64,000 nt of DNA from an uncultured Chloroflexia bacterium (lineage in GTDB: Bacteria > Chloroflexota > Anaerolineae > CG2-30-64-16): positions 154,612-218,611 of the forward strand of contig CAVOHP010000014.1 of assembly GCA_963695715.1 (NCBI GenBank), read 5' to 3'. The notes under the pieces are model-generated. The model was not told the origin of the DNA, searched no databases, and saw only the letters and a program-made list of their open reading frames with translations. The position numbers and the translations under genes are program-made. Of the stretch, positions 324 through 60,802 are shown piece by piece. Positions within the stretch are counted from its first letter, which is position 1. The number at the start of each line of letters is the position of its first letter.

Positions 324-407
324 CGCCGATCACCTTGGGAGAAAGGCAGTCGAACCATGGTGGATGTGATGTAGTTTCCTGCTTCCGGCGGCCCCTGCGC
401 GCAGTGC

Positions 408-831
408 TTGGTTCGATACCCATATGGCCGCACCATTATGGGCAAGCGAATGTTCGACCAAGGCGAGCGCGCCTGGCCAGAGGAGGCTCCGTTTCACACA
501 CCGGTATACGTTCTTACCCATGAGAAACGCGAACCCTGGGTGCGCCCGGGTGAGACGACCTTCTACTTCATCAATGACGGGCCGGAGCGTGCCCTTGAGC
601 TGGCTCGGGAATCCGCAGGCAGTCGTGATATTCGTATCGCGGGTGGAGCCGATGTGATCCAGCAGTACCTGACCATGGGTGTGTTGACGAGCTGGAAATC
701 GCCTTGACGCCCGTGTTGTTCGCCGGTGGGCGGCGTCTCTTCGAGAACCTACGCGAGCCCGGGCCGCAGTTTCGCATTGATAAGGTTCTTGATGGTCCAG
801 CTGCCACACACTTGCGCTATGTGCGTCAGTG
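408..831 (+). pseudogene. Dihydrofolate reductase-family (RibD C-terminal domain) gene fragment: N-terminus missing, internal frameshift
   Basis: RTIMGKRMFDQ...IRIAGGADVIQQYL motif in one frame; it continues as DELEIALTPVLFAGGRRLFENL in another frame to the stop at 829-831; no plausible N-terminus upstream. Confidence 0.6.
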
Positions 832-1096
832 AGGGCGGCCTAACAATCGGTTGCAGCGGACGGCCCGCTGCGCGGCCTGACCGATGCGCCCGCGCAGGAA
901 GTCGCGGCCGAGCGCGCAAGGGGTCGCCACCGAGGGCTGGGGCGTGCGGCTGCTCGCGCTGCAGGGGGCCGATGGCTGGTGGGGCGGCGCGGCAACTGGA
1001 TCTAGACTGTCCCCGGTCGAGGCTGGTTCGTGCTGCTGCGCCTCTATGGTCCGCTCGAGCCGTTCTTCGAGCGGGTTCGCTTGCTCTCAAGTGAAC

Positions 1097-1297
1097 TCAT
1101 CCGCCGCTGATGAGGTGGAGCGCCTGCACTTCGGCTTCGTCGGGGATTTCCGTCGTCGCGTAGTCGGCGCGCAGCACCGCCACGCCGTTCACGCGCACGG
1201 CGATCATCTTGAATGTGAAGTTGAGCGCGTCGAGCAGGTCCTGCACGGTCATGCCGGGCCGCCACGCGACTTCGTACTGGTTGTTGACGTGAATCAT
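1097..1297 (-). CDS. ThiS/MoaD-family sulfur-carrier protein (66 aa, C-terminal GG)
   Basis: MIHVNNQYEVAWRPGMTVQDLLDALNFTFKMIAVRVNGVAVLRADYATTEIPDEAEVQALHLISGG: ubiquitin-like fold pattern with terminal Gly-Gly; ATG at 1295-1297. Confidence 0.5.
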   Translation of the reverse strand: MIHVNNQYEVAWRPGMTVQDLLDALNFTFKMIAVRVNGVAVLRADYATTEIPDEAEVQALHLISGG

Positions 1298-2234: not shown

Positions 2235-4326
2235 GTGACGACCCAGATCGCCGCCAGAACCCTTGGGAACTCCCTGACCACCGGCCGCCGTGTACAAGCG
2301 GCCTGGTTGGCCTTCCTGTTGCTGGCGCTCAGCCTGGCGCTGCCCGGCATCGCTCCCTATCGTCAGCTCTTGCAGACGGTCTGCACCGGAGACGGCTGCA
2401 TCACGGGCCAGTTGTCGCCGCAGGAGGCCTGGAGCATCACCGAGTCTGGAGACACCCTGCTTGAGTACGCCGACCTGGCGCTCATGGTTTACCTCTTCGC
2501 CGCTGTGCTGGCCCTGATCACGGCAGGCTATCTGATCTGGCGCAAGTCGGCCTACCCCCCGGCTGCGTCCATGGGCTTCGCGCTCGCGGCGCTGAGCGCC
2601 GCCACCCTGGCTCAGGCCGCCGCGACGACCTATCCCGCGCTGCACCTCCCGGCGCAGTTGATCGGGATCGTTCCGATAGCTGCTGCAACGCTGTCCTTCT
2701 GTCTCATCCCCGACGGTCGCTTTCACCCTGGCTGGCTGCGGTGGGGCGTGCCGGCGGCGATGACAGCCGGGGCCCTGGCAACACTTGGAGTGTTCGGCGC
2801 CGCCATGGTGGCCGCGATCCAAGTGGGGATCGCGGCGCTGATCGTGGGCAGCCTGATCACCCGCTACCGCTCACTGCCGTCCTCGCCGCAGCAAGAGCAA
2901 GTTACTTGGGCGCTGGCAGCCTTCGCGTTGTTCGCAGGCGTACAATGGATCGGCAGACCGCTGCAATGGCTGCCTCTACCCGCACTGCCCGTGTCAGCAT
3001 TCCCGCTGACGTACAACATGTTCATGATCGTGTTCGGGCTGCTGTTGTTCATCGGCGGTCTGACCTGCGTCGCCGTGGCGCTTCTGGGCGATGAGTTGTT
3101 TCGGGTCGAAGTTGCGCTGAATCGCGCCCTGGTGTATAGCCTGCTCACCCTCTTCGTGATCGGCGGGTATGCGCTGGTCGTAGGCTACCTGTCATTGGTA
3201 TTCCAGTCACAAGGCAGCCTGTGGTTCTCGCTGATCGCCACCGGACTGGTGGCGGTGCTCTTCCAGCCGATCCGGGTGCGCGTGCAACGCGCGGTGGACC
3301 GGCTGCTCTACGGCGAGCGGGACGATCCCTATAAGGTCGTCGCCCAGTTCGGGCAGCGCCTCGAGGATACGTTGGAACCGGGCGCCATTCCGACCGCCAT
3401 CGCGGAGACCGTGCGGGCGTCATTGCACCTGCCCTATGCCGCCCTCACCCTGGAACTGAATGGAGCGACTGAGATGCTCGCTGAAAGCGGCGCCTCGGCA
3501 TCTGAGCTGATCTGTTTCCCGCTGATCAACCAGGGCGCGACGGTGGGCAATTTGCTGGTCAGTCCTCGGCGCGGCGATGCGGGGCTGAACGCCGCAGACC
3601 GCGCCCTGCTCACCGACCTGGCGCTGCAGGCGGGTGTCGCGATCCACGGCGTTCGCCTGCTGAACGACCTGCAGCAGTCACGCGAACGATTGGTGCTGGC
3701 GAGAGAGGAGGAGCGCCGCCGTCTGCGACGCGACCTCCACGATGATCTCGCGCCGACACTGGCAGGACTATCATTACGCGCCGGCGCGATCAGCGATTTG
3801 ATTCTGACGGATCCGATCAAAGCGCAAGGCCTCGCAGACGGCCTGGTCTCAGCGATCCGCGACGCCGTGGGCGACATTCGGAGACTCGTCTATGACCTGC
3901 GCCCGCCGGCGCTGGATGACCTGGGACTGCTGGGAGCCATCCGCGAGCGCGCGGCCGATTACAGCCTGGGGTCTGCCGGCGCGCCCGGGCTGACGGGTGG
4001 ATGTGGATTTACCGGATAGGCTGCCGCTATTGCCTGCGGCCGTCGAGGTTGCGGCCTACCGGATCACTCAGGAAGCACTGATGAACGTCATCAGGCACGC
4101 CCAGGCTCACAACTGTCACGTTCGGGTGACGCTGACGGATGCGCTGACCATCGCGATAGAGGACGATGGCGTCGGCCTGTCAGGACCACGTACGGCAGGC
4201 GTAGGACTCCGCTCCATCCAGGAACGCGTCGCCGAGTTGGGCGGCGAATGCAAGATCACATCGGGCGTAGAGGGCGGCACAAGCATTGTGGTGCGCCTGC
4301 CGGTCGCGCAGAGGCAAAGCAAATGA
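2235..4326 (+). CDS. Sensor histidine kinase, NarL/HisKA_3 type, with large N-terminal multi-TM domain; split by one frameshift near 3990
   Basis: GTG start; 8+ TM helices; H-box LHDDLAPTLAGL; second ORF carries the HATPase_c domain (VAAYRITQEALMNVIRHAQA...DDGVGL). The expected GL-VDVDLPDR junction is broken by one extra G in acgGGGtgg (3994-3997). Confidence 0.8.
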
Positions 4327-4976: not shown

Positions 4977-5085
4977 CCGCATGGAGACTCCCGAAACCTG
5001 GATTATGGATTTACGCCGCGCCCGAAGAGATGTTATCCTCAGCTACCATTCAAGTCAACTGTCTCAGAACACGCGAGGTAAACCA

Positions 5086-6163
5086 ATGACCGAATCGGAC
5101 GGCGCGGTATTTCCGGGCGCAGAGTGGGAGCCGGCGACGCCGGAGTCGCAGGGCGTGGACACGGCCGGCATCGCGGCCGCGCACGCATACCTCGAAGAGA
5201 TGATGGGAGAGAGCAGCACGCGGGAGACGACGATCATCCGGCATGGCCGCCTGATCTGGGAAGGGCCGGACAGCCGGGAAATGCACGGCGTGTGGTCGGT
5301 CACCAAATCGTTCACGAGCACCTGCCTCGGCCTGTTGGCCGACGACGGCCGGTGTGGGCTGGGCACGCCCGCGCACGAGTTCGCGCCGGAACTCGACGCG
5401 GATTATCCTGATGTGACGTTGCGCCACTTCACCACCATGACCAGCGGCTATCGCGCGGTGGGGGATGAGCCGCGTAACGGTTACCTGCACGGCCCCAGCC
5501 TGACGCCCTTCGATCCCAGCCCACAGCCGCTGTTCACCCCGCCCGGCAGCCACTATGCTTACTGGGATTCGGCCATGAACACCTTCGCCTGGGTGCTGAC
5601 GCGCATCGCGCGCGAACCGCTGGAGACGCTGTTCCGGCGGCGCATCGCCGACCCGATCGGCATGAACCCGGCGGAGTGGCGCTGGGGCGTGATCGAAAAA
5701 CGCGACGGGATCGCGGTCAACGGCGGGTCGGGTAACATGAACAAGCACGTCTTCATTTCGGCGCGGACGCTGGCGCGGCTGGGGCTGCTCTTCCTGCAAC
5801 GCGGCGTCTGGGATGGCCGCCGCCTGTTGAGCGCCGACTGGGTAGACGCGGCGACGCGGGTGCAAGTGCCCGCCTCGACTGCCGCTGGGCCACCCGGAGA
5901 GCGGCATTGATGGGCGCGGGGTCTATGGGTTCAACTGGTGGACGAATGATCTCCAACCCAACGGGGCGCGCCCCTTCCCCGATGCGCCGGCGGGGACGTA
6001 TCTGGCCCGCGGCAAGTTCGACAATATGTTGTTCGTGATCCCCGAATGGGATATGGTGGTGACGCGCCTGGGGCTGGCGGGCAATGCGCCCGATCACGTG
6101 TGGAACGGTTATCTGAAGCGGATCGGCGCGGCTATAAGCCTGGCATCACATAGAAGGTCGTGA
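5086..6163 (+). CDS. Beta-lactamase-family serine hydrolase, split by a frameshift near 5890-5910
   Basis: SVTKS (S-x-x-K) motif; downstream frame continues GIDGRGVYGFNWWTND...IPEWDMVVTRLG, as typical for the family, to the stop at 6161-6163. Confidence 0.7.
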
Positions 6164-8364: not shown

Positions 8365-10537
8365 CAGCTATGCGCTTCTACCAGGGCGACCACGTCCGGG
8401 AAGTCGATGCCCAGCTCGTGCAGCTTCTCCACCGTCGGGATGCCGTTCGCGTTCCAGCCGCGGCGCTCGTAGACCGCGTCGCAGAGTTCTGGTATTGATC
8501 CTCGCGATAGGCGCGCAGCGCGGCGATCTTCTCGGCGTGGTCATGCCTGACGGATCAATGCCGACCTTCTCGCGCAGTTGCTTGTCGTAGCGCTCGACGC
8601 GGCTCTCGTATTCCTCGACTGTCACCGGCCCGGCGGAGCGATAGGGGATGCGATCGTGCCGGCGCGTGCCGAAGCCCATCCGCAGGTTGAAGACGCGCTG
8701 GAAGTTGTAGACCCGCTCGGACATGGTGATCAGGTCTTCTTTGGTCACCTCCACGCCCGGTGATGCCGGAGAAGAGCGCCGACGTAGTTCGCCACATGCT
8801 CCGGCACCTTCGCCGGCTCATCGGTGAGCGCGTTGTCCACCGGCTCGATGTCGTTCCACGGCAGCTTGCACAGCCCGTTCAGCCCGAACCAGGTGCGCCA
8901 CATCGGGAAGTAGTGCAGCGCCTCGGCCTTGTCTTCGAAGGTCGGGAATCTGGTTGTTCACCATGTCCATGAAGATCAGCCAGGCCTCGTCGTGCTGCGC
9001 GCCCTTGTTGGTCATGCCGTAGCCGCCCTGCTGCGCCAGGCTCTCCTTGGTCATGTACTCGCGAGTATTCCATCCCCTTGTTTTCCATGCCGATGTCCTC
9101 GAGGAACGCCGGATCGGCGCCGTAGTGCTCGGCGAAGTAGGTCCTTCATCGCGCGGACGCCCATGCCCGGCGATCAGGCCGAAGCCGCTCGCCCGCCGCC
9201 ATTCGATGCAGCAGCGTCGATCGCCGCGTCGGCGTTGCCGAAGCGCAGCTCCAGCCCGCCGGTCTTCTCCAGGTCCAGGATGCCCGCCTCGAAGCACTCC
9301 ATGACGAACGCGGTCAGCGTGCCGAAGGAGATCGAGTCGATGCCGTAGGTGTCGCAGTAGAAGTTCAGCTCGATGATGTCGGGCGGGTTGAAGATGCCCA
9401 GGTTCGAGCCGCAGCCCGCCACCGTCTCGTACTCCGGCCCGTCCACGGTGACGCACTGCGCCGCGATACGGCCCGGTGCGCAGCACGAAGCGATCCACCC
9501 CCTTCGAGCACGCCATGGTGCAGCCGTAGAAGCAGGCGTCGGGGATGCCCTGCGTGAAAGGTCGTCCCACACCGTGTGAGTTGATCTTCGGCGCGTCCGG
9601 ATGGGAGCCGAAGCTGAAATTGTGAACCGGCAACAGGTCGTAATCGTCCATGATCTCGACCAGGTGCGCGGTGCCCACGCGGCGCATCCGGTTCTGCTCG
9701 TCGTCGAGATCGGCGATCTCCTTGTTGATGCGTTGGCCTACGGCGCGGATGCGTTTGAGATCGGCCGGGTCGTTGGAGTCGGCCTTCAGCCGGTGTAGCG
9801 GCAGACGATGGCTTTGATTTTCTTGTCGCGCAGCACCGTGCCCAGCCCGCCGCGGCCCGGCCTGCTTGATGCGCGCCGTGCCGCGCCGCAGATCGTACCA
9901 GCTCACGTTGAGGCAGCCGATGCGCGTATGCTCGCTGCCCTGCCCGGCGGAGACCACCGACATGTTGCGCCTGTCGGCTTCGTCCTTCGCGTACATCGCC
10001 GTCAGCTGCTCGCCGATGAGGTGGGAATCCACGGCTTCGAGGGGCGCCGTCCTCGATGGTGACGCGCCCGGTGTCGCCGTCGATGACGAGGATCACGTCT
10101 TCGTCGGCTTTGCCCTGGACCTCCAGCGCGTCCCAGCCGGCGAACTTGAGCAAGCGGGCCGAAGTAGCCGCCGACGTTGCTGTCCACGACGATGTGGGTC
10201 AGCGGCGAGATGGCGACCACCAGCGATTTGCCCGTGCCCGGATAGAGCACCGTGCCGCCGATGGGGCCGGAGGCGATCACGATTTCGTTTTCGGGGTCAT
10301 TCCACTGGGTCTCGTCGCGTCACGGCGTGCCACAACCGCCACAGCCCGAACCCCTTGCCGCCGACGAAGATGTCGCTTCATCTCGTCGGTGACGGGTCGA
10401 GCTTCGATATGGCCGGTGGCGAGATTGACGTAGAGGGTTTGCCCGGCGTAGCCGCGATGCACCTTGGGGACCGCGTAGAGATATTCCGACGTAATGTAAT
10501 GCGCCGTCTTCAATTCCTGGATTGCTTCAAGGGTCAT
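8365..10537 (-). pseudogene. Aldehyde:ferredoxin oxidoreductase (tungsten AOR family) gene split by several frame changes
   Basis: AOR-like segments in successive frames: GYAGQTLYVNLATGHIE (N-terminus, AGGAGG RBS), ASGPIGGTVLYPGTGKSLVVAISPLT, LKFAGWDALEVQGKADEDVIL, DGPEYETVAGCGSNLGIFNPPDIIELNFYCDTYGIDSISFGT, QGGYGMTNKGAQHDEA, ITMSERVYNFQRVFNLRMGF...LVEAHS*. Several frame changes within ~2.2 kb. Confidence 0.75.
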
Positions 10538-10716
10538 CTTTGACGCCTCCTGATGAGTTTTCCCATGACCCCATTCTCGCGCTATCCGAGGCCAACAGTC
10601 CATGACCGGCGTCATGGCCGCGAACGGGGCCGGTCAAGCGGGGAATGAAAAGAGCCGACGATTTCTCGTCGGCCCCTTCGATGATCTCAGGCGGGATCAA
10701 GTACGAACGGAATCGA

Positions 10717-11140
10717 CTAAGCAAGCAGGCTGAGAATCAGATTCATGGCAACAGGATTTGCGTCGACGCCGATACCCAACAGGCTCAACACCCAGTTGAT
10801 GAGCCAGCCGACAACGCCAATCGCGATGGCAGCGATGAGCGCGCCGGTGAAGCCATTGGTCTTTAGGCCCGGCAGGAATGACGCGCCGAACATCAGGACA
10901 AGCGCTGCGACGACGACAGTGATGATCCATCCAAGGAGGCCGCCCATGGATCCGAGGTTGATACCGAGAAGCCCGAGCAGCCAGTTGACGACAGCGACAA
11001 TCAGGGCGATCACCAAAGCCGGCGATGATCGCGCTGCCGAAGCTGTCAACACTGAGGCCGAGGTTGAGTCTGCTCACGATCCAGAGAACCAGAGCAGCCG
11101 CGAGAAGAGCGATGATAAATGTCAGAATTGCACCAAGCAT
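10717..11140 (-). CDS. Small 4-TM membrane protein, resembles the phage-holin-4_2 (DUF360) family; one frameshift
   Basis: MLGAILTFIIALLAAALVLWIVSRLNLGLSVDSFGSAIIAG then, in a second frame, ...LIVAVVNWLLGLLGINLG...LGWIITVVVAALVLMFGASFLPGLKTNGFTGALIAAIAIGVVGWLINWVLSLLGI; family call is tentative. Confidence 0.45.
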
Positions 11141-11306
11141 GTAGAATGCTCCTTTCAGATGAGCCTGAGAAATGAAACGCCCGCCTGTAAGAATATTATA
11201 TCAAGTATGTTGACGCTTGTCCAGATAGCAAAATTTGAAAAGGGCCCAGACTCACCCGGCTGAAGCCTCCAGTCCAGCGCGGGAGAATCGCCTGCACTTT
11301 GGAATC

Positions 11307-13468: not shown

Positions 13469-13620
13469 AGCGTACCACTGACGTCGCACTACGAAGAGGC
13501 CTGCGACGCGGTCTGGCGACGGCTTTGACGCATGCCCCGAAAGACGCTAGAATCACCTGTGAGCCATGTTGTGTGGTTCGCCTGTGATCTCTGCCCTGTC
13601 ACATCCGGAGGAACAAAACG

Positions 13621-16295: not shown

Positions 16296-16331
16296 TAAAC
16301 AGGGGAATCTGTCTGTCATACAGAATCTTCA

Positions 16332-16990: not shown

Positions 16991-17039
16991 TCTCCTCCCA
17001 GGTCACTTTCGGGTCGGGTGAGAGGCTCAGGCCCCGGAA

Positions 17040-40798: not shown

Positions 40799-40834
40799 GC
40801 GCGCTGTTGCACCGGCTGGGGATGCGGTTGATCG

Positions 40835-45121: not shown

Positions 45122-45161
45122 TCGCGCAACATCACAACACAAGGTCAATGGAGGAATGACA

Positions 45162-46430
45162 ATGCAAACGACAGCCGTCCGATTGCATGGCAAGAAGGAT
45201 TTGCGCCTGGAGACCCTCGCTCTGCCGAAAATCAAGGATGATGAAATCCTGGCCAAAGTAATCTCAGACAGCCTCTGCATGTCCACATACAAAGCTGCCC
45301 TGCAAGGCAGTGATCACAAGCGCGTTCCGGCTGATATTGACGTGGTTCCTGTCGTGGTCGGCCATGAGTTTGCGGGCGAGATTGTTGAGGTTGGGGATAG
45401 ATGGAAAGCCCAATTTGCGCCGGGAGACAAGTTTTCCATCCAGCCAAACATCAATTCGCGCGGACTGGGCTACGCGCCGGGTACTCCTTCCCATACTTCG
45501 GCGGAGACGCCACCTATATTGTGGTTCCGGGAGAGGTGATGGAGAAGGGTTGCCTGCTTGATTACGAAGGCGACGCCTTTTTCAAGGCATCGCTGGCCGA
45601 ACCGATGTCGTGCATCATCGCGGCCTTCCATGCGTCTTATCATACCGAAGAGGATGGGCAGGCTCACAAGATGGGCATAGTCGAAGGGGGAACCCTGGCG
45701 CTCCTCGCCGGAGCCGGCCCGATGGGTCTCGGCGCGATTGACGTCGCGCTGCATGGCGCGAGAAAACCGGCTCTGGTGGTGGTGACAGATATTGACGACG
45801 CAAGGCTGCGGAGGGCAAGCGCCCTCTTCACTCCTGAATCCGCCGCCAGAGCAGGGGTCCGGCTGGAGTATGTCAATACCAAAGATCGTGCGGATGCCGA
45901 CAGAGCATCTGCGAGAGTTGACCAACGGTAAGGGCTTCGACGACGTATTCGTCTTCGCACCCGTCAAGCCGGTGGTAGAGCTGGCAGATCGGATCCTGGG
46001 GAAAGATGGGTGTTTGAATTTCTTCGCCGGCCCCACGGATCCCAGGTTCTCGGCGGAATTCAATTTCTACAACGTGCATTATGCTTCAACCCATATCGTG
46101 GGCACCAGCGGCGGAAACACACAGAATATGGTGGAGGCCCTGGACCTGATGGGGAAAGGTCTGGTCAATCCCGCAGCCATGATCACCCACGTCGGCGGCC
46201 TGGACAGCGTCGCCGCCACGACCCTGAATCTCCCCCAGATACCGGGCGGGAAAAAGCTGATCTATACACACATCAAAATGGATTTGATCGCCATCGAAGA
46301 CCTGGCGAAGAGAGCAGAAACGGACCCCCGATTCGTTGAGCTGGCAGAAATCGTGCAAGAAAGCCAGGGCCTGTGGTCCGCCGCGGCTGAGCGGTATCTG
46401 CTTGCGAACGCTCCGGCCATACAGGCATAA
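45162..46430 (+). CDS. Zinc-dependent medium-chain dehydrogenase/reductase (polyol/sorbitol-dehydrogenase-like); two frameshifts (~45480 and ~45900)
   Basis: GGAGGA ribosome-binding site; CMSTYKAAL...GHEFAGEIVEVG (catalytic Zn ligands), GAGPMGLGAIDVAL Rossmann motif; three successive frames. Confidence 0.7.
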
Positions 46431-47641: not shown

Positions 47642-47653
47642 GGAGGATCAAGA

Positions 47654-49433: not shown

Positions 49434-49676
49434 ATGTCGCTCGAATTATGGTTTCGCCAGGATTTGAAGAATATCCTGCTCTCGATCAATGTGGCGTCGG
49501 CGGCTTCCGCGCGCTTCTCCGATGAAGCGCGGGTGATCGCTTACCGGCAGGGCTTCGAAGAGGCGCTGGAATTGGCGGCGGTGGCGCTGGGCATCCCGCC
49601 GGAAGAGGTGGGGCTGCATCCGGGGCGTGAGGGGCAGCCGGGCGAGCGGCTACGCGGGCTGCGCTTGCTCCGCTGA
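49434..49676 (+). CDS. Hypothetical small protein (80 aa)
   Basis: Strong ribosome-binding site CAGGAGAT and near-consensus promoter; no recognised motif; the Arg/Gly-rich C-terminus may run into antisense of the next gene. Confidence 0.35.
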   Translation: MSLELWFRQDLKNILLSINVASAASARFSDEARVIAYRQGFEEALELAAVALGIPPEEVGLHPGREGQPGERLRGLRLLR

Positions 49677-51330
49677 TGCGCCATCGCCATCGGTCGGCGA
49701 GATCGGGCCAGGCGCTGCGGGCCGCCCGGCGGGCGCGGCCTCAGGCTCGGGACCCGCGGGGGGCAGGGGTCTCAGCCGCTCCACCAATTGCAACACGTCG
49801 GTAGGGATCACGAACTTCGTTGCGGGGTTTTCCGCCATCTTCTCCAGCGCTTCAATCAACCGCATATTGAGCAACACCGCGGGATCCACATTTTGCACCC
49901 CGGCAATCCCATCAGAAATAGCCAGCATCATGGCGCGCTGCGCGACGGCGCGTTCGGCTTCCAATAACCGCAGATGCACGGCCTCCGCACGCGCCCGGGC
50001 CTGCCGCCTCGCGCTCCTCACGCTCCGCCGTATCCGCCTTCCAACCCGCCACTTGCCGGGCCTGAAGACTCTCGCGCACTTCCGCGGGGACGCGCACTTC
50101 TCCGAAATCCACGGCCGTCACGTTCACGCCCATCAGGTTCGCCGTGACGCGGTTGACCGCAGCCATCAACTCTTCCCGGAATGCCCAACGATTGGCATCG
50201 GCCAGCGGCAGGATTTCCTCGAGCGTGTGACGACCCACGACATCACGCGTCGCCGTCTCCACGACATTGCGAACGCTATCCCGCCAGTCATTGCCGCTCA
50301 TGGTCCAAACACGAGTGATCAGGATATCGGGGTCGAACGGAAAGCGCCCCTGTGGGTTGGAAGCGGGCGACGGAGGTATGGCGGGCGCGGGGACCGAGCC
50401 GTTCGAAGCGAGATTCGGCGCGGGGGGCGGCGCGGAAGCGGTCGCCGCCGCTTCAATCCCGTCCGCTTCGGGGGCAGGCGGCGGAGGAGAAGTCGCCGCA
50501 CTCGGCGCATTCGCGGCGCTCACAGTCGGGTCGGGAACCAACACCCTGTGGAAGGCCCACAGTTCGAAATTCTCGATCAGGATGCGATCGGCCGTGGCGA
50601 CGTTTGCGATGTTGAGATGCTCGGAACGCAGCGTTAGCGGCACGACCATGGCCACCCGCTCGTAAGGCGCCAACTGCGTCAGGCCGCTGCCCACAACCCG
50701 CGAGAACTGCCCGACCTTCTCCAGGATCACCGCATTCCCATCTTGCACGATCAGCGTGGCGGGGCCGCCCAGCGCCTCAAGGCTTTCGGTCTGATCGGCA
50801 ATGATCCGGCTCGTCCCATTGTTGACCACCCAGATACCCTTGTTGATGCCGACGATATCCTTCGCGGCGCTGACGGTTGCCTGTGGCTTCTGGCCCTGAT
50901 ACTGGTTATGCGCGCCGTAGGTCATACGGCCGTTGGCGATGGCAGTCGGAACAACAAAAACTGAACCCAGGATCAAAGCGATCAGCAGGGCGGCGATGAC
51001 GATCCAAAAGGAGCGCAGAGGGTTCGTCCCCAGCAGGAACGCCGTTACGCCGCTGCGGGTCAACAGGGCCGGATCGTTGGCCATGATGGACGCCAATAGC
51101 TCGTTCAGCAACCAGGCGACCAATAGCGCGGCCAGGGAAAAGACGCCCAGCGAAAAGAACAGGCGCGTGTTGAAGGTGGGCGACTTCGTGAAGCTGAACA
51201 TGCGCAGCGAGCACATGAAGAAGATCAATGCAACGAAGAATGCCGGGGCAGGCCATCCTATTTTGATGGAAATGAAAATCCCAATGAGAATGCCGACGAT
51301 TTCAGCTACCTGGCGCATGGAGAACCTCAA
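49650..51330 (-). CDS. SPFH/band-7 (stomatin/flotillin-like) protein with N-terminal 4-TM domain and a PA-rich insert; frameshift near 50000
   Basis: SPFH core IVGINKGIWVVNNGTSRIIADQTESLEALGGPATLIVQDGNAVILEK...; the C-terminal coiled region continues in ORF 49650-50021 (LEAERAVAQRAMMLAISDGIAGVQNVDPAVLLNMRLIEALEKMAENPATKFVIP). Confidence 0.65.
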
Positions 51331-53131: not shown

Positions 53132-53518
53132 TCACGTGGTCACTATCCAATCCTCTACGATGCGGCCATCAGCCAGACGATATATAATTTGACCGGATGA
53201 GGTGGTCGATTCGTTGGTTGCCGCGACACCCATGAACTCACCTCGTTGGGTCCCACGGAACGTATAGCGTGCGGCTACTCTATCGCCCTCGAGCGACCAG
53301 GTCTTCAATAGTGAAGTGCATGTCCGGGTAAGCTGCATGGAATGCCCTGACCGCTTGTTTGACGGCCTCGGGGCCGATAACATTGCTGCCATCTGGCCAG
53401 TGCCGGACATAGTCGGGCGAAAAGATCTCATCAGCCGCGGCCAGGTTGCCTTGGTTCCAGAGTTCGTTGAAGTTACGCCTGATGACACTGCGGTTCTGCT
53501 AATTAGCTCGGCTGGCAT
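53132..53518 (-). CDS. SnoaL-like / predicted ester-cyclase-family small protein; two single-nucleotide frameshifts
   Basis: GAGAGGAAG ribosome-binding site plus ATG at 53518; NRSVIRRNFNELWNQGNLAAADEIFSPDYVRHW...FTIEDLVA then GDRVAARYTFRGTQRGEFMGVAATN...GRIVEDWIVTT in the next frame; first shift fits an AAA-to-AA change in agaAAcc. Confidence 0.55.
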   Translation of the reverse strand: MPAELISRTAVSSGVTSTNSGTKATWPRLMRSFRPTMSGTGQMAAMLSAPRPSNKRSGHSMQLTRTCTSLLKTWSLEGDRVAARYTFRGTQRGEFMGVAATNESTTSSGQIIYRLADGRIVEDWIVTT

Positions 53519-53750: not shown

Positions 53751-56700
53751 TCAATCATACGCAGACCGATCTCCTCCGCCCGTCACCGGCAGGAACATCG
53801 GCGGCGGGGCCACGTCACCCTTGAAGCGCGGGATGAGCCGGTAGCCGCCCACGTAAGGCTGCTCTGCGACGTACTGGCCGACCACGCCGCGCGCCACCCA
53901 CCAGTCGCCGAGGTGGACGTAGGGCCGCCGCCAGGGGAGGTCTTCGGGGAAGTAGACGCGGAGCGCGCCGCTGCCGTCATCCAGCAGGAGCGCGTTCGGC
54001 TCGTACCTGACGACGCGCCCAAGCACCAGCGCAAGCTGTCCTTCCTGCGCTTCGCCGAGGCGCCCGGTCGCCACGCGCACCGCCGCCGGTATCTCGCCCT
54101 TGCCCAGCAAGGTGATGTAACCGGGGTCGGGGACAGACAGTTCCAGCTCGCCGTGATAGTCGCGCGTCCAGCCGGTGACGCGCAGCAGGTCGCCCACAAC
54201 CAGCGGCGGATACTCGCCCTTGCGGAGATAGATGCGCGCGCCGCCCGTCGCATCCTGGATGTAGATGCTGCGCCCGAACAGCCCCGGCGGCAGCGTTACG
54301 ACGCCGGTGAGCGTGACGCGCGTATCGGGCGGCAAGGCGCGCACGTTCGCCATCGCGGTCTCGCCCGAAAGACCGCCAGAGCGGGGACGGGGGTCGCCCT
54401 GCCGCCCGGCGGCGATCGTCGTCATCGGCGTCGTCATCCCGCGGCGGTCGCAATCGGTTCGCCTGCCCCGGCGTGACCACGCAGTCGGAGGTCCAATCGC
54501 CTGAGCCGTCGGCGGCGCGGCAGAAGCTACGGTCGTCGCCGGGGCCATGCGCGTATTCGAACCGGTCAAGCTCGACGCCATCGGGCCGGGAAAGCGTCAC
54601 GCTGTCGCGTGAATCGCCCAGCGACAGGCCCGTTTGCGCGCGGAACAGCAACAGGTAGGCGCGCGGCCAGATCACTGTGCCGGCGGGGAGCGTGTAGGCG
54701 CCGGCGTCATCGCCGATGCGCCATCCACCCAGCGTCGCCGGCGTTTCACCGGCGTTGAATAACTCGATCCACTCGTCGCGGAAGTCGGCCGCGCCATCCC
54801 CATCCCAATCCACCTCGCGCGGGTCAGGCAAAATCTCGTTCAGCGTGACGCCTTCGGGATAGGCGGTCGCCGTCGGCGTTGCTGTCGGCGTCGGCGTTGC
54901 GGTCGCCGTTGCAATCGCCGTGGGAGAAGCGGTGGCCGTCGGCGTCGGTCGAATCGAATTCGCGGTTCCGGGCGAGCCGAAATCGCCCGCGCCGCCGGGC
55001 CACGGCGACCAGGACATGCCCCAGCTCGCGCCCAGGCTGTTATCGAGCGCCACATCCAGCAAGACCATAGACGCCCCGGTCGGATCGGGAAACTCCGGCC
55101 CGCCATCGTAGGCCACGCGATCTATCTCGCTTCCTGCCCCATCCAACAGGATGATCTCGTCCACATCATTCCCCAGCAGGAAGCCGGAATATTCGTAGGC
55201 CATCGCCACGCCGCCGTTCACCGCGCGCATCGGCATTCCGACCCAGGACCAGATAATCGCCAGGCGCAATGAATAGCGGGCCGCCCGCCGCAATGCGATG
55301 CGTATCGGTTCCTTCGTCACGCAGGGTCCAACCGTTCAGATCAATCATATGGTCGCCCGCGTTGTATAGCTCGAACCACTCGCCGACAACGTCCGGCACG
55401 ACCGCGGGGTTCTGCATGATCTCGGTGATGATCACGTCGCCGGGTTGACCCAGGCCAGGCGTCTCTGTCGCCGTGGATGTGGCGGTGGGCGTAGAAATCC
55501 GGGTAGAGGTAGGCGTCGGCGTCAACGTGGGCGTAGCCGTTGCCGTCGGGGTGAATGACGATGTCGCCGTAACTGTGAAGGTGGCGTGGGGGTTGCCGTC
55601 GGCGTCCCGGACGGCGTAGGTGTGGGGACCGGGGGATTCGCGGCGCCGGGCGAGCCGAAGTCGCCCGCGCCGCCGGGCCACGGCGACCAGGATAAGCCCC
55701 AACTCGCGCCCAGGCTGTTATCAAGCGTCACATCCAGCAAGGTCATGGACGCCCCACTCGGATCCGGGAACGCATCCCCGCCATCATAGGCGATCCGATC
55801 AATCTCGGTGCCCATCCCATCCAGCAGGATGATCTCGTCGGCAGCGTTCGCCAGCAGGAACCCGCTGTAGGCGTAAGCCACCGCCACGCCGCCGTTCAGG
55901 GACGCATCGGCCTCGCGGCCCAGCACCAGATAATCGCCAGGCGCGATGAGCAGCGGGCCGGCGGCCTGGATGTGGTGATGGTCAACGCCATCATCGCGGA
56001 TCGTCCAGCCGTTGAGGTCAATGGGGCGAGCGCTCGCGTTATACAACTCGAACCACTCGCCCACCGTGTCCGAAACGGCGTCGGGGTTCTGCATGATCTC
56101 GGTGATGATCACGTCGCCGGGTTGGGCCGGTTCGGATGTCCATGTCGCGACGGGCGTACTTGTACTCGTGGCAGTTGATGCAGGTGTGGGGGTGACCGTC
56201 GCGGTCGGCGTCAGGGTATGCGTGGGCGTCGGCGTCAAGTGCGAGTCGGCGTGGGCGTCGCGGTCGGTGTCAGGGTATGCGTGGAGGTGGCGTCGCGGTC
56301 GGTGTGGGCGACGGCGTCATGGTGGGAGGCGGCGCGATGTTCGGGGAAGCCGGGCGACGGCGAAAAGCCCTCCATCCATTCCCCAAACCCATCTACCGCG
56401 CGGCTGTAACTCCGATCCGCGGTCGGGTTGGTGTAGGAAAAGGCGTCCACTTCGAGACCATCGGGCGCGAGCAGGCGCGCGGTGTCGGCGTCCTGGTTCA
56501 GCGCCACGCCCGTGCCCGAACGGTGACGCACCAGAAAGCCCATCGGCTCCAACACAGTCCCTGGCGGAAAGATGTAAGGCGATGTGCCGCCAAAGGCCAT
56601 GTCGTCCAGCGCCCAGCCGCCCAGGTCTATCGGATACGGTTCGAGGTTGTAGACTTCGATCCACTCATCGTAGGCATTCGCGACGCCGTTCCCGTCCCAA

Positions 56701-58215
56701 TCCACACTCATCGGTCGAGGCAATACTTCGTTCAGACGCACTCTCGGCCAGGGGGTGGCGGTCGCGGTCGGCGCCGGCGTGGTCGTGCAGGTTGGCGTCA
56801 GCATCGCGGTTGGCGTCAGCGTCGCAGTTGAAGTTGGGGTGGGCGTGTGAGCAGTCGTCGGCGTTGCGTCCGGCGGCGATGTTGCGACCTCCGTCGCCGT
56901 CAACGTGACGGTCATGGTCGGTGTGCGCGTGGGCGCTTCCGTGGACGTAGGCGTCGCCGTGGGCGCGGGCAGCGGGAGACCGGGGTGCGGCGTTGCCTGC
57001 GGCAGCCAGTCGGCGCGCGTGTTCGTATCCTCATCGGGAGGAACACGCGCCAGCGACCAGCCGGGATCGACATCCGGGCAAGGCGGGTCGAAGATGCCCG
57101 TATCCGAGCCATAACTCATGGCATCTATGAGTGTTCCATCCGGCGCCAGGAGCAACACCCGATCTCCGGCGTTGATCAGCCCGTCGCCGATGATCCCTTC
57201 CAGCGACACCAGCGGGCCGGCATAGCCGGGATGGTTGGCGAAGAACCCGGAAGCCGTGGCGGCGATCACCAGGAATTGACCCGACGGCAACACGATCGCC
57301 GGGATGGCGTCCGCCTCGGCGTTGTCGGCCACGCGCCAGCCCGCCAGATCAACGTCCGAGCCGCTCGCGTTGTAGAGTTCGATCCACTCGAACGGTTGGT
57401 CGCTGCCGGCCTGTGGTGCGTCGTACATGACCTCGCTCAGGAGCAGCCTGGGCCAGACAACAGGGGTGCGCGTCGCCGTTGAAGTCGCTGTTGCGGTTGG
57501 GGGCGCCGGAACGGGCGTCTCGGTGGGCGTCGGAGAGGGCGTCATCTCCGGCGTATCCGTGGGCGTTGTGGAGGGCACAGGGACTGGGTGTGACCGTGTA
57601 GGTCGGCGTCACGGAGGCAGTTGCCGTGGGCGCGGGGGCGGCGGGAATTGCGCCGGGGGAAGGCGCAGGTTGCGCGCGCCAGTCGGCGGCGGCATCCGTA
57701 TCCTGCGCAACCGAAACACGCTCCAACGACGACCCGGCGGGCACGTCGGGGCAGGGCGGACTGAAGGCCGAGACGTCGGAGCCGTAGCTCAGCGCGTCCA
57801 CGGCGTTCCCGGCAGGGTCCAGCAAGATGAGGCGGTCGGCCGCGTTGTTCAGACCATCGCCGATCGAACCCTCCAGCGTCACCAGCGGGCCAGAGAAACC
57901 GGGGTAATTGGCGAAGAAGCCGGAAGCTGTTGCGGCGACCACCAGCGTCTCGCCAGGGGCCAGCACGTAGGCGGGTACGAAGTCGCTCTCTGCGTTGTCG
58001 CCCACGCGCCACCCGGCAAGATTCACCGGCGCGCCGGTCGGGTTGTGGAGTTCCAGAAATTCATATTGCGTATCTGTGCCCGACTGCGGCGCGTCGTAAA
58101 GCACTTCGCTGATCAGGAGATGATCGGGCGATTCGGCGGCGCTGCGCCGGGAGAAAGGCGGTAGAAGGAACGAGGCGAAAAGAAGGACGACGGAAAAGAT
58201 ATGCAGGCGCGCCAT
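53751..58215 (-). CDS. Giant secreted multidomain protein: signal peptide, at least six lamin-tail domains (LTD) separated by Pro/Thr-rich linkers, C-terminal OB-fold-like domain; several frameshifts within internally repetitive DNA
   Basis: LTD signatures recur: LISEVLYDAPQSGTDTQYEFLELHNPTGAPVNLAGWRVGD, LSEVMYDAPQAGSDQPFEWIELYNASGSDVDLAGWRVAD, RLNEVLPRP...DEWIEVYNLEPYPIDLGGWALDD, VIITEIMQNP...GEWFELYNA...IDLNGWT(I/L)RD (twice), TLNEILPDP...DEWIELFNAGETPATLGGWRIGDD; C-terminal TLTGVVTLPPGLFGRSIYIQDATGGARIYL...; pieces lie in 6 ORFs in successive frames. Confidence 0.65.
54850..58100. repeat. Internal near-identical repeats (~700-bp period) inside the LTD gene
   Basis: For example 54940-55040 versus 55640-55740 (~90% identical) and 57000-57400 versus 57700-58100. 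Confidence 0.7.
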
Positions 58216-58371
58216 GGCCTACCATCCATTCAGAGAACCGTGAAGCTACAATGAGCGAACGGGATAGACTCGCGCGTTATATCACGAAGGCGAATGACTT
58301 GTCAAATGGGGCGACAAAAAACCGGGCGCTTTACAGCGCCCGGTCCAGATGTTCGGTTGCTTATTCCAGGT

Positions 58372-60601
58372 TTACTCGGCGCGGGTCAGGCCGGTCATGT
58401 CAACCTCGATGCCGCCCTCGCCCAGGTCTTCCAGCGCATCGTACAGGACCTGCGCTGCGTACACAGGGTTGTGTGCGAAGACGCCGGGGTCCTTCTGGAT
58501 GTACTGGTAGTTGTAGGCCGCGCGCAGCAGGCGAGGCGTCCAGGCCGCGAAGGCCCCTTCACCCTCATCAATCTTGCCGTTGGCGTTCGCATCTTCGAAG
58601 AAGTACGGATACGTCACTGCATCGTAGAGGATGGGTTTCTTGGCGACGTCTTTGGCATAGAGCTGCATCGCTGCGAACAGCTTCTCTTGCAGCGCCGTGA
58701 TCTCCGCAGACACGCCTTCCTTGGCGTCCTTGTCGCCGTCGAGGTCAGCCGCGCTGATGCGGATGTCCTGAGGCGTCTTGACGCCCGCATGGCAGGTCAC
58801 GCACTTGTCGAAGGCGAGTTCCTGCGTATGCGTGCCGTGGCAATCGGTGCAGGTCTGGAAACCGGGGGCGTGCATGTTACGACCGGCGTATTCCTTGTCG
58901 GCGTACTGATACGCGCCCTGAGCCTCGTCGCCGAACAGCGACGCGCCCGCCGCGAAGTAGTGTACGTTCGAGAAGCGCAGCGGCGTCTCGGGCACGACGT
59001 CATCTTCCTTGCCCTTGAGCTTGGCGTTCATCGAGGCCGTGGATTCGCGACCCTGATGGCATTCGAGACAGACGTTGGCGTCTGCCGGCAGGAGGTCGCC
59101 TTCTGCATTCTTCTCGGTGCTGAACGTGACGCTCTTCCCGCTGGGGAAGGGCACATTCGTCACCGGATGCAGGGTGAATTTAGCCAGATCGTTGTGGCAG
59201 GTGGTGCAGGCGAACCCGTTCGCCGGGTGCGCCGCCGTGACGCCGGTGGTGACGACGTTGCCGCGTCCGTCAACCGCGACTGTGCCGCCGTTCGCGAGGA
59301 ACTCAGGCAGGCCCTCGGAGGAGTGGCACTTGGCGCACGAAGCCGGAACCATGCCCTCTTCGTCCCAGTGACGGAAGGCTTCAGACGTGCCGTCGAAATG
59401 ACCGGCGTCGTCCCGAACCGCAGCCTCGAGGTCAATCGGCTTCGGCGAGCTTGGTGTTCAGGTCCGCGATCGAATCGTGCATCAACTGGACAACGTACTT
59501 GGCGTTGTGCGCGAACTTGCCGGGGTCCTTGCTGGCAACCTGGTAGTTGTAAGCCGCCTGCAACAGGCGCGCCGTCCAACTTGAGTAGCCCTTCTCATCC
59601 TCATCGGCCTTGCCGTTGTTGTTGGCGTCGGCAAACCAGTACGGATACGCCGCCGGGTTGTAGGCAATAGGCGCTTCCGAGACCTCTGCGGCGTAGGCCG
59701 TAATGGCCTCGCCCAGTTTTCCTTGCAGACCGGTCACTTCAGCCGAAACGCCTTCCTTCGCATCGCCGTCGCCGTCATAATCCATCAACGAGCCGGGCAT
59801 GCGAATCTTGGCGAGGTCTTCGACCTTGGCGACGCCCGCATGGCACGTGGCGCACTCTTTCACATCGAGCGCCAGCGTGTGCGAGTTGTGGCAGCCGACG
59901 CAGGTGTCATACGGCGCAGGATGCTGGAACTTGCCGTCATACGACATGTCGTCGTATTCGTAGCCGCCCTTGGCCTGGGTACCGTATTGCGTGGCTGCAG
60001 CAGCGAAGTAGTGAACGTTGCGGAAACCAAACGGCACTTCTTTGCCATCTACCGTCATGGGTTTGACGACAGCATCAAGATCGGTGACTTTGAAGTCCGC
60101 GATCTGCTTGTCCACGCTCACTTTGGATTCGCGCCCCTGATGGCATTCCATACAGCGGGCTTCGCTTCCGAGGCCGGTCATTTCGATGCCAGACGGGAAG
60201 ACAACGCCATCCTTGGTCGGGGTCACGGTGTTGTGGCAAGCCACGCACTGGATGCCGTTTGACGGGGGATGCTTTGCGTCAATCTTTCCGGCGGCGCTGC
60301 CATCAGCGCCCAGAAAGTCAAGATAGCCGGTGGTGGCGTGGCATTTGGCGCAGGCGGCAGGGACTTCCTTCGGATCTTCGGCGTCCCAATGGCGGAACGC
60401 CTCTGCCATCGCGTCTGCATGGCCGGAGCCTTGCCAATCCTTGAGGAAGGGGATCTCCGGTATAACGGGCTCGTCAGCCGCAGCGGCTGCTGCGGGCGCA
60501 GGGGTGGGCGTGGCATCCTGTGCGTAGGCCACAGCGCCGAAGGCTGTGAGCAACAGGACAACAATCAGGGCCAGCCCAAGGGACTTTCTCATGGCCTTCA
60601 T
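58372..60601 (-). CDS. c-type cytochrome made of two tandem pentahaem modules (decahaem if fused); the second module lacks its own signal peptide and the split coincides with a frame change at 59432-59440
   Basis: AAGGAGG ribosome-binding site, signal peptide MKAMRKSLGLALIVVLLLTAFGAVAYA; module 1 CAKCH, CVACH, CMECH, CVGCH, CATCH; module 2 CAKCH, CTTCH, CLECH, CTDCH, CVTCH; modules are paralogous (AEAFRHWDAEDPKEVPAACAKCH versus SEAFRHWDEEGMVPASCAKCH; both end KDPG.FAHN); the module-2 frame is open upstream to within 3 nt of the module-1 stop. Confidence 0.7.
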
Positions 60602-60802
60602 CGGTCCTCCTTGTGTCTTGCATGGGGTGGAGACACATGTTGAGATACTGACGTTGCAAATACAAATTGAGGAGCTTATGCCGTTATTGTCACCTCCTTC
60701 ACCGGATATATGATCCTGCTCAGAGACGGGACAGTCCTGTCGCAAGATCATCTGGCGCTCACGGGGTGCAAAATCAAGGTGAGCGTTTAGACGGGATTAC
60801 GT

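What the first reader, a model, noticed from the sequence alone, without database searches (positions are those of the whole stretch)
400..60650. About half of the genes are interrupted by what look like single-nucleotide frame changes, several in homopolymers
At least 20 otherwise conserved genes read across 1-nt frame changes: histidine kinase, beta-lactamase-family, AOR, solute-binding lipoprotein, HAD, AI-2E, NPP/5'-NT, HtrA, metallophosphoesterase, cNMP protein, M50, GH2, GT4, SorC, MDR dehydrogenase, SPFH, ester cyclase, the LTD giant, the decahaem cytochrome and the DHFR-family fragment. Where the junction could be reconstructed the cause is a single inserted or deleted base, often in a homopolymer: one extra G in acgGGGtgg at 3994-3997, a break in the GGGGG run at 24015-24019, an AAA-to-AA change near 53495, and one extra T creating TAG at 38737. 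This pattern is what indel errors in an uncorrected long-read or low-coverage assembly look like, but genuine genome decay cannot be excluded. It changes how every gene call here should be read.
Basis: seen in the sequence. Interest (0 to 1): 0.6.

Follow-up and report, generated by a model that had tools for sequence, protein, structure and literature searches.

The report
Assembly insertion errors, not gene decay
About 23 of some 50 genes in this Anaerolineae contig are broken by at least 60 single-base frame changes. The evidence says these are consensus errors of a noisy assembly, not real pseudogenes, so the finding is an artefact that mainly matters for how the gene calls are read.

Summary
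The frame changes are real in the sequence and more numerous than reported. I count at least 62 single-base events: 44 mapped against intact orthologues and 18 inferred from the frame path plus domain or homologue evidence.

They are not biological decay.
- With the extra or missing bases removed, the genes read as full-length, conserved proteins with no internal stops.
- dN/dS is the same as in intact neighbours (AOR with 19 indels 0.153; intact genes 0.07-0.11).
- The repaired AOR has only 1 private change at columns conserved in at least 95% of homologues; intact homologues have 0-4.
- Every window indel I could check is absent from a short-read MAG (82-90% identical) and from three contigs 91-94% identical.
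- Those sister contigs come from one ENA submission series and have Flye-style contig names. They carry their own private single-base insertions in other genes.

Insertions outnumber deletions about 5:1. They avoid homopolymers (1 of 40 lies in a run of 3 or more). They are very patchy (19 in AOR, 10 in AI-2E/HAD, none in about 8 kb of other genes).

Verdict: assembly artefact, low interest.

The parts
1..323 (+). Zinc-ADH (MDR) C-terminal fragment. One insertion-type frame change, somewhere in 1-313 (about 100).
   Evidence: Frame path +1 to +2. ADH_zinc_N_2 aligns 4-99 of the repaired protein across the junction at residue 34.
408..860 (+). RibD_C / DHFR-family fragment. One deletion-type frame change within 629-707. 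The N-terminal ~70 profile positions are missing.
   Evidence: Three-frame reading. RibD_C aligns 28-125 across the junction at residue 89. Allowed window.
2235..4326 (+). Histidine kinase. One insertion-type frame change within 3994-4019, between HisKA_3 and HATPase_c.
   Evidence: HisKA_3 lies at 494-561 and HATPase_c at 606-692 of the repaired protein, junction after residue 589. No close relative was available.
4981..6129 (+). Beta-lactamase-family gene. One inserted base at about 5880.
   Evidence: blastn against the intact 352-aa orthologue in L003.
8371..10551 (-). Aldehyde:ferredoxin oxidoreductase, a hot patch with 19 events.
- 15 inserted bases: 8760, 8780, 8943, 9064, 9141, 9165, 9191, 9219, 9458, 9572, 9854, 10051, 10152, 10320, 10371.
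- 4 missing bases: 8490, 8536, 9558, 9789.
   Evidence: Alignment to the intact 720-aa orthologue in L003. The repaired protein is 83% identical over 99% of 720-aa AORs. dN/dS is 0.153 with no internal stops. One private change at conserved columns.
10726..11157 (-). Small membrane protein. One inserted base at 11018.
13612..15328 (+). Tandem SBP_bac_3 solute-binding protein. One inserted base at 14161.
   Evidence: Absent in L001 (568-aa intact orthologue) and in L094.
16321..18146 (-). AI-2E transporter + HAD hydrolase fusion gene, a hot patch with 10 events.
- 9 inserted bases: 16376, 16418, 16664, 16736, 16853, 16877, 17022, 17145, 17347.
- 1 missing base: 16791.
   Evidence: One 606-aa gene in L001. 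Gap map. L094 lacks all of the events. dN/dS 0.152.
18390..22140 (-). Phosphodiesterase/5'-nucleotidase (1249 aa). One inserted A (coding strand) at 21198.
   Evidence: More than 120 homologues are single ~1240-aa proteins. The base is absent in L001 and in L093, with identical flanks.
23178..24075 (-). HtrA-like trypsin-PDZ protease. One inserted base at 24012, separating the first 21 codons from the rest.
   Evidence: L093 lacks the base and has the same run of five. Homologues align from Met1 across the junction in one stretch.
24886..25955 (-). Metallophosphoesterase. At least 2 inserted bases (about 25467-25472 and 25687).
26855..28552 (-). SpeE-like membrane protein, an ORF that looks intact. 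It contains a compensated pair, a missing base at 27800 and an extra base at 27757-27759, which leaves 14 codons out of frame.
   Evidence: The shifted frame matches the relatives' sequence between the two sites.
33967..35781 (+). cNMP-binding-domain protein. Inserted bases at 34277 and about 34558-34560 (GG to GGG).
   Evidence: L004 reads through in frame. L093 lacks the 34277 insertion but has a different extra base within 10 nt of 34558.
37168..37734 (-). HD-like 193-aa protein. One inserted base at 37262.
   Evidence: Absent in L093. P0407 (193 aa) aligns end to end across the junction.
37735..38376 (-). Peptidase M50. One inserted base at 38027.
   Evidence: Absent in L093. P0389 (209 aa) aligns 7-213 across the junction.
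38524..40843 (+). GH2 beta-mannosidase-like gene (760 aa). Inserted bases at 38735-38737 and 39571. One missing C at 40787 (C5 to C4).
   Evidence: P0241 is 85% identical and a single 760-aa protein. Gap map against L092 and L093. Pfam domains span both junctions.
40846..41780 (+). GT4 glycosyltransferase (310 aa). One inserted base at 40951.
42397..43326 (+). SorC-family regulator. One insertion-type change within 43077-43099, where there is no run of 3 or more.
   Evidence: The Sugar-bind domain aligns 58-303 across the junction at residue 233. Allowed window.
45160..46430 (+). MDR zinc dehydrogenase. One deletion-type change (45401-45539) and one insertion-type change (45786-45931).
   Evidence: ADH_N and ADH_zinc_N each span a junction. 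Allowed windows.
49651..51330 (-). SPFH/Band-7 protein. One insertion-type change within 49912-50117.
   Evidence: P0394 (508 aa) aligns across the junction in one stretch. The downstream fragment is deposited separately as a 93-aa protein, P0401.
53132..53518 (-). SnoaL-type ester cyclase. One insertion-type change near 53300-53330, and probably one deletion-type change near 53470-53498.
   Evidence: SnoaL aligns 10-124 across the junction with E=2e-34. DNA reading.
53754..58218 (-). Multi-LTD giant secreted protein. At least 6 frame changes (5 insertion-type, 1 deletion-type), mostly in Pro/Thr linkers and one inside an LTD domain at about 55240.
   Evidence: Manual path through stop-to-stop ORFs. 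The LTD profile spans the 55240 junction. No relative was available, so the positions are approximate.
58372..60600 (-). Decahaem cytochrome, a tandem of two pentahaem modules. One inserted G (coding strand) at 59443.
   Evidence: Nine of nine relatives checked have one uninterrupted ~720-aa ORF. The gap is at the same site against L012, L037, L047 and L095.

Best explanation
The frame changes are consensus errors in the assembly, not mutations in the organism. The window comes from a 218.6-kb contig of an Anaerolineae MAG held in NCBI and ENA. Its base-level consensus carries spurious single bases, mostly extra and occasionally missing. The background rate is roughly one per 2-3 kb, and it rises to about one per 100 bp in patches (AOR, the 3' half of AI-2E/HAD, the LTD giant). 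The underlying genes are intact and under normal purifying selection. Gene callers split them into fragments, and some fragments are already deposited as separate 'proteins'.

Shown: the positions, direction and privacy of the indels; the integrity and conservation of the repaired genes; and the same syndrome in sister assemblies.

Inferred: that the cause is a noisy long-read-type consensus at low or uneven depth, possibly worsened where reads of co-occurring relatives pile up on conserved genes. The sequencing platform and pipeline were not identified.
For: 1. Removing single bases restores full-length orthologues.
- NPP/5'-NT: 90% identity over 100% of a 1249-aa protein.
- AOR: 83% over 99%.
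- GH2: 85% over 98%.
- Decahaem: a single ORF in 9 of 9 relatives.
- Pfam or homologue alignments span the other junctions.

2. There is no sign of decay.
- No internal stops in the repaired genes, and dN/dS of 0.15 for AOR and AI-2E/HAD against 0.07-0.16 for neighbours.
- AOR has 1 private change at columns conserved in at least 95% of homologues, against 0-4 in ten intact homologues.
- By my estimate from typical bacterial indel-to-substitution ratios, nineteen neutral indels would come with roughly 200 substitutions.

3. The direction bias is the opposite of what I would expect from natural bacterial mutation, which is deletion-biased to my knowledge: 37 insertions to 7 deletions (p=5e-6), and about 51:11 overall.

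4. The distribution is extremely patchy (chi-square 115, df 20, p=2e-15).

5. The events are private. The short-read MAG GCA_038214535.1 (L001, L003, L004, L092) lacks every mapped event. The 91-94% identical ENA contigs L093, L094 and L095 lack every event checked, often with identical flanks.

6. Sister contigs from ENA analyses ERZ25039459, ERZ25039527 and ERZ25039596 ('contig_N' names) carry their own private single-base insertions in other genes: 15 insertions and 0 deletions in L093's anti-sigma gene, which is intact in the window; 38 insertions and 5 deletions in L096's AOR; 24 extra bases in L095 against 6 in the window over the same alignment.

7. Frameshift fragmentation by long-read consensus indels is a documented artefact (PMC12007338, PMC9262707).
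Against: - No reads were available, so no site is proven erroneous directly.
- The signature is atypical for the best-known long-read error modes. Nanopore and HiFi consensus errors are reported as deletion-dominated and/or homopolymer-linked (PMC12007338, PMC9262707), whereas here insertions dominate and avoid homopolymers. The platform and pipeline therefore remain unidentified.
- The nearest comparators are 91-94% identical, not the same strain, so very recent real mutations cannot be formally excluded site by site.
- One site (about 34558) is hit within 10 nt in both the window and L093. That would need either a systematic context error or coincidence.
- The idea that both alleles of a polymorphism were written into the consensus was not supported statistically (5 of 19 against 3.25 expected, p=0.22).
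Confidence: 0.93

Rival explanations
1. Genuine genome decay: the organism really carries dozens of frameshifted pseudogenes, as in a host-restricted or recently bottlenecked lineage.
For: About 45% of the genes are disrupted, which on its face resembles pseudogene-rich genomes. No reads were checked. A 1.8-kb stretch (51.3-53.1 kb) has no coding signal and only a faint LTD remnant, so some real degradation may exist locally.
Against: - The only lesions are single-base indels. There are no nonsense codons, large deletions or IS elements in the compared genes.
- dN/dS and invariant-site conservation are indistinguishable from functional orthologues, even in a gene with 19 indels.
- The bias is towards insertions, where I would expect a deletional bias.
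- No lesion is shared with relatives at 91-94% identity.
- Sister assemblies have different genes hit in the same manner.
Confidence: 0.04
2. Consensus artefact specifically caused by mixed populations. Reads of co-occurring related Anaerolineae (or of paralogues) are recruited onto conserved genes during assembly or polishing, and the consensus writes in extra bases there. This is a sub-hypothesis of the artefact explanation and would explain the patchiness.
For: - The AOR gene is very conserved across many Anaerolineae (more than 100 homologues at 67% identity or above). It is the worst patch in two independent assemblies: 19 indels in the window, and 38 insertions plus 5 deletions in L096.
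- Several related populations at 80-94% identity exist in the same submission series.
- A few AI-2E/HAD sites show the two alleles seen in relatives side by side.
Against: - The systematic test was not significant (5 of 19 singleton insertions match a neighbouring allele of a relative, against 3.25 expected, p=0.22).
- Most insertions sit between two bases that are conserved in all relatives.
- Other hot patches (AI-2E/HAD here, the anti-sigma gene in L093) are not especially conserved genes.
Confidence: 0.3
3. Recoding: the frame changes are real and are bypassed by programmed ribosomal frameshifting, transcriptional slippage or RNA editing.
For: The repaired products are conserved and look functional, which is what a recoding system would require.
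Against: - The sites lie in no common motif and avoid slippery runs.
- Up to 19 sites fall in one gene.
- None is conserved in relatives, which read in frame.
- To my knowledge no bacterial system removes single templated bases at arbitrary contexts.
Confidence: 0.01

Closest known systems
Gene-fragmenting indel errors in long-read (meta)genome assemblies (Watson & Warr 2019, as cited in PMC12007338; Kastor, PMC12007338; Sereika et al. 2022, PMC9262707)
   Same: Single-base consensus indels split otherwise intact genes into adjacent ORFs in different frames. The density depends on coverage and polishing. The fragments end up in protein databases. Comparison with intact orthologues reveals and repairs the errors.
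   Different: The published nanopore and HiFi error profiles are deletion-dominated and/or homopolymer-associated. Here insertions outnumber deletions about 5:1, only 1 of 40 lies in a run of 3 or more, and the density varies about 50-fold between neighbouring genes.
Pseudogene-rich decaying bacterial genomes (for example Mycobacterium leprae or recently host-restricted symbionts; from my general knowledge)
   Same: A large fraction of the genes is interrupted.
   Different: As I recall them, decaying genomes show mixed lesions (nonsense mutations, deletions, IS elements), relaxed dN/dS, deletional bias and lesions shared within the clade. None of this is seen here.
Insertion-biased random errors of early single-molecule (PacBio CLR-type) reads (from my general knowledge, not tested)
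   Same: Random, mostly non-homopolymer single-base insertions that exceed deletions.
   Different: No evidence ties this contig to that platform. The sister contigs' Flye-style names and recent ERZ accession numbers do not identify the chemistry.

Membership tests
Assembly/consensus indel artefact | Removing or adding single bases restores a full-length protein colinear with intact orthologues | tested here: met
   NPP, AOR, GH2, decahaem, SBP, AI-2E/HAD, M50, HD, HtrA, SPFH, SorC, MDR dehydrogenase, SnoaL, RibD_C.
Assembly/consensus indel artefact | The interrupted genes show no relaxation of selection | tested here: met
   dN/dS is 0.15 against 0.07-0.16 in neighbours, with no internal stops. 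Private changes at conserved columns equal those of the controls.
Assembly/consensus indel artefact | The indels are private to the assembly and absent from close relatives | tested here: met
   Absent from the short-read MAG contigs and from the 91-94% identical contigs at every site checked.
Assembly/consensus indel artefact | Other assemblies made the same way show the same defect at other positions | tested here: met
   L093, L094, L095 and L096 from ERZ25039459, ERZ25039527 and ERZ25039596. That they were made by the same pipeline as the window's contig is inferred, not shown.
Assembly/consensus indel artefact | Raw reads contradict the consensus at the indel sites | not testable with these tools
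   No read data are accessible. The source record's accession was not returned.
Nanopore/HiFi/454-type homopolymer error | The indels are concentrated in homopolymer runs, with deletions at least as common as insertions | tested here: not met
   1 of 40 insertions lies in a run of 3 or more, against 18% expected. The insertion:deletion ratio is 37:7. Published profiles are in PMC12007338 and PMC9262707.
Genuine pseudogene-rich (decaying) genome | Mixed lesion types, elevated dN/dS in the pseudogenes, and deletional bias | tested here: not met
Genuine pseudogene-rich (decaying) genome | Lesions shared with close relatives of the lineage | tested here: not met
   None is shared with L093, L094 or L095. 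Near 34558 both the window and L093 are shifted, but by different bases.
Programmed frameshifting / transcriptional slippage | A conserved slippery motif at the site, with the frameshift conserved in orthologues | tested here: not met
   No common motif, and the orthologues are in frame.

The most novel reading that the evidence does not exclude
The extra bases are really in the DNA of a living Anaerolineae population, and the genes still make full-length proteins because transcripts or ribosomes skip single templated bases at many arbitrary sites. That would be a bacterial deletional editing or bypassing system.
Probability: 0.01. Interest if true: 0.95.

Novelty: not a real feature. Interest (0 to 1): 0.1.

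Why it matters
The value is practical, not biological. Every gene call on this contig, and probably on the whole MAG and its sister assemblies, must be read with frameshift-aware methods.
- About 45% of the genes are fragmented.
- Some ORFs that look intact contain out-of-frame stretches (27757-27800).
- Fragments are already in public protein collections as separate proteins (P0401 and probably P0392).
- Pseudogene counts, pathway-completeness estimates and protein family sizes drawn from such MAGs would be wrong.

The insertion-dominated, non-homopolymer, patchy signature is also a warning. Homopolymer-focused polishing or quality control would miss most of these errors.

Tried and rejected
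- A GC3 frame plot and GC1/2/3 ORF filter were too noisy to map shifts. I replaced them with a codon-usage Viterbi frame path, which still mis-tracks in Pro/Thr linkers, so the LTD region had to be traced by hand.
- Exact look-ups of two window proteins with the look-up of encoding contigs found nothing, although listing of cluster members later showed them on a 218,611-bp NCBI/ENA contig. The source accession, and therefore the sequencing platform, stayed unknown. A full-text search for the ERZ accession prefix found no paper.
- Strand or base bias of the inserted bases: G 16 against C 7 on the + strand, p=0.09, not significant.
- Codon-phase preference of the insertions: 8, 13 and 14 after codon positions 1, 2 and 3, no signal.
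- 'Both alleles written into the consensus' test: not significant.
- Three apparent frame switches were rejected as frameshifts: the response regulator at 4309-4965, the mannitol dehydrogenase / C_GCAxxG pair at about 44617, and the short GT4 C-terminus with the stop at 41778 (also 310 aa in L092).
- A six-frame Pfam scan of 51.3-53.16 kb found only a faint LTD fragment.
- Rfam and tRNA scans found only tRNA-Leu.
- The metagenome loci L012-L091 matched only the decahaem gene at the DNA level, so they gave no help for the LTD giant.
Full report
**What the window is.** The window has 62% G+C, and its genes are typical of Chloroflexota/Anaerolineae: Pro/Thr-rich linkers, multihaem cytochromes and LTD-domain giants. 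Exact look-up shows that its proteins sit on a 218,611-bp contig present in NCBI and ENA. The closest accurate comparator is the short-read (megahit) MAG GCA_038214535.1, 'Anaerolineae bacterium Co_metawrap_1702'. Four syntenic pieces were recovered:
- L003, matching window 5.1-12.2 kb.
- L001, matching 13.5-26.5 kb.
- L004, matching 26.4-37.2 kb.
- L092, a Logan contig from run SRR19962010 (the run that also holds the same NPP protein as this MAG), matching 38.5-42.2 kb.

These are 82-90% identical at the nucleotide level. Closer relatives at 91-94% turned up on ENA metagenome contigs L093, L094 and L095. A more distant one, L096, is about 80% identical.

**Checking the observation.** A codon-usage Viterbi path over the six frames showed dozens of same-strand frame switches without intervening gaps. 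Homology then separated real frame breaks from ordinary gene boundaries.
- AOR: the sequence stitched across about 13 frame switches is 83% identical over 99% of intact 720-aa AORs.
- GH2: 85% identical to a single 760-aa protein.
- Decahaem cytochrome: nine of nine relatives have one uninterrupted ORF.
- Pfam domains align in one stretch across the junctions of GH2 (twice), GT4, SorC, the MDR dehydrogenase (twice), the SnoaL cyclase, the RibD_C fragment, the ADH fragment at 1-323 and one LTD domain. The histidine kinase is split between HisKA_3 and HATPase_c.
- The four weakest cases (M50, the HD-like protein, the HtrA N-terminus and SPFH) were confirmed by full-library hits that span each junction in a single stretch.

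Three other frame switches are normal gene boundaries or a naturally short gene.

**How many events, and of what kind.** Gapped DNA alignment to the intact orthologues mapped 44 non-multiple-of-3 indels in 29.4 kb of compared coding sequence, 37 extra bases and 7 missing bases. About 18 more (14 insertion-type, 4 deletion-type) follow from the frame direction where no close relative exists. The total is at least 62, about 51:11 (p=3e-7 against 1:1).

Natural length differences in the same alignments are multiples of three and lie in low-complexity linkers. One ORF that looks intact hides a compensated pair, 27800 and 27757, with 14 codons out of frame.

The distribution is very uneven (chi-square 115, p=2e-15):
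- 19 events in AOR.
- 10 events in the 3' kilobase of AI-2E/HAD.
- At least 6 events in the LTD giant.
- No events in about 8 kb covering the nucleoside hydrolase, permease, deacetylase, Fpg, sigma/anti-sigma, SH3-protein and prephenate dehydrogenase genes.

**Homopolymers.**
- 28 of 40 mapped insertions differ from both neighbours, 11 make a dinucleotide run and 1 a trinucleotide run. Inserting random bases at random positions would give 52%, 30% and 18%. Runs of 3 or more are depleted (p=0.004).
- In HtrA the run of five has the same length in L093, and the extra base lies 3 nt away, at 24012.
- In GH2 the extra base is G38735 according to L093, not the T of the TAG codon.
- Deletions show only a mild run association (one C5 to C4 at 40787, one GGG to GG at 9789).
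- No sequence motif, codon phase or significant base or strand bias was found.

**Artefact or decay?** Four independent lines point to artefact.
1. Selection. After the indels are removed, dN/dS against the short-read MAG is 0.153 for AOR and 0.152 for AI-2E/HAD, against 0.07-0.16 for the neighbours, with no internal stop codons.
2. Invariant sites. Across 120 AOR homologues, the repaired window protein differs at only one column that is at least 95% conserved, and that column lies within 3 residues of an indel. Ten intact homologues score 0-4. By my estimate from typical bacterial indel-to-substitution ratios, a gene that had neutrally accumulated 19 indels should carry on the order of a hundred or more random substitutions and several stops.
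3. Privacy. Every event checked is absent from the short-read MAG and from the 91-94% identical contigs, frequently with identical flanking sequence. The sites checked are 14161, the ten AI-2E/HAD sites, 21198, 24012, 25472, 25687, 27757, 34277, 37262, 38027, 38735 and 59443.
4. The same syndrome elsewhere. The ENA contigs come from consecutive analyses ERZ25039459, ERZ25039527 and ERZ25039596 and have Flye-style 'contig_N' names. They have their own private single-base insertions in different genes:
   - L093 has 15 insertions and no deletions in the anti-sigma gene, which is intact in the window.
   - L096's AOR has 38 insertions and 5 deletions.
   - L095 has 24 extra bases against 6 in the window over 5.6 kb.
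   - Their gene calls are visibly fragmented.

An insertion bias of 5:1 is also the opposite of the deletional bias I would expect from bacterial mutation. Genuine decay is therefore very unlikely (about 4%).

**What kind of artefact?** Fragmentation of genes by consensus indels is well documented for long-read assemblies (PMC12007338; PMC9262707, which reports that R10.4 needs about 40-fold coverage). Those reports describe deletion-dominated and/or homopolymer-linked errors, however, which is not what is seen here. I could not identify the record, platform or pipeline, so the precise cause is inferred.

AOR is a very conserved gene and is the worst patch in two independent assemblies. This suggests that reads from co-occurring relatives are merged there. 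A direct test of whether inserted bases match a relative's allele at the adjacent position was not significant (5 of 19 against 3.25 expected).

Near 34558 both the window and L093 have an extra base within 10 nt of each other but with different sequence. This hints at a context-dependent error but remains unexplained.

The description needs three corrections: about three times more events, an insertion bias, and no homopolymer link. The feature is not biological. Its importance is as a warning for annotation: fragments such as P0401 (93 aa, 100% identical to the SPFH tail) are already deposited as proteins. Interest is low. The only exciting alternative is real extra bases bypassed by editing or recoding. 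It has no support and I give it about 1%.

Noticed in passing
window 8371-10551; L096 11650-13400: The AOR gene is the densest error patch both in the window (19 indels) and in an independent, about 80% identical assembly (L096: 38 insertions, 5 deletions). The neighbouring nucleoside hydrolase gene is clean in the window. The error hot spots may track highly conserved genes shared by co-occurring populations.
   Followed up: partly
window 51300-53130: About 1.8 kb has no convincing coding signal on either strand. The only match is a faint LTD-domain fragment ('WIELFNADEAPVALGEWHISDD') near 51520-51600 on the minus strand. This could be a real gene remnant or a very error-dense stretch.
   Followed up: partly
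window 42200-50000: G+C drops from about 67% to about 57% across a sugar-catabolism cluster: SorC regulator, mannitol dehydrogenase, C_GCAxxG protein, MDR dehydrogenase, PfkB kinase, xylose-isomerase-like TIM barrel and OsmC. The relative's contig L092 ends just before it. This is either a horizontally acquired island or an assembly join.
   Followed up: no
window 34540-34575; L093 about 4240-4260: The window and the 94% identical L093 each carry one extra base within about 10 nt of the same place in the cNMP-binding domain, but with different local sequence. The short-read MAG L004 reads in frame. This could be a context-specific systematic error.
   Followed up: partly
window 26855-28552 (27757-27800): An ORF that looks intact contains a compensated -1/+1 pair, so 14 codons are read out of frame. 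The shifted frame matches the relatives' transmembrane segment.
   Followed up: yes
   Followed up: yes
window 22430-24890: A 2.5-kb block (trypsin-like protein, HtrA-PDZ protease, LuxR-type response regulator) is present in the window and in L093 but absent at that position in the short-read MAG contig L001. This is a real gene-content difference between the lineages.
   Followed up: partly
window 6364-8118: An intact 584-aa multihaem cytochrome with a Pro/Thr-rich N-terminal linker sits between the beta-lactamase gene and AOR. The relative L003 has a MazE-type antitoxin pair there instead.
   Followed up: no
window 58372-60600: The decahaem cytochrome is an internal tandem duplication of a pentahaem module. 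The two halves are about 47-49% identical to each other at the protein level. It is conserved as one ~720-aa ORF in more than 80 metagenome loci.
   Followed up: partly
window 40846-41780: The GT4 glycosyltransferase ends after about 310 aa, about two-thirds of the way through the Glycos_transf_1 profile (positions 14-111 of 172). The same short form is present in relative L092, so the truncation is natural and not an error.
   Followed up: yes
window 49651-49986 and 38026-38376: Fragment ORFs created by the frame changes exist in the public protein collection as separate proteins: P0401 (93 aa, 100% identical to the SPFH tail) and P0392 (139 aa, 98% identical to the M50 N-terminal part).
   Followed up: partly
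window 32292-32375: A single tRNA-Leu(CAA), intact and 95.5% identical to the relative with no gaps. It is the only RNA gene found in the window.
   Followed up: yes
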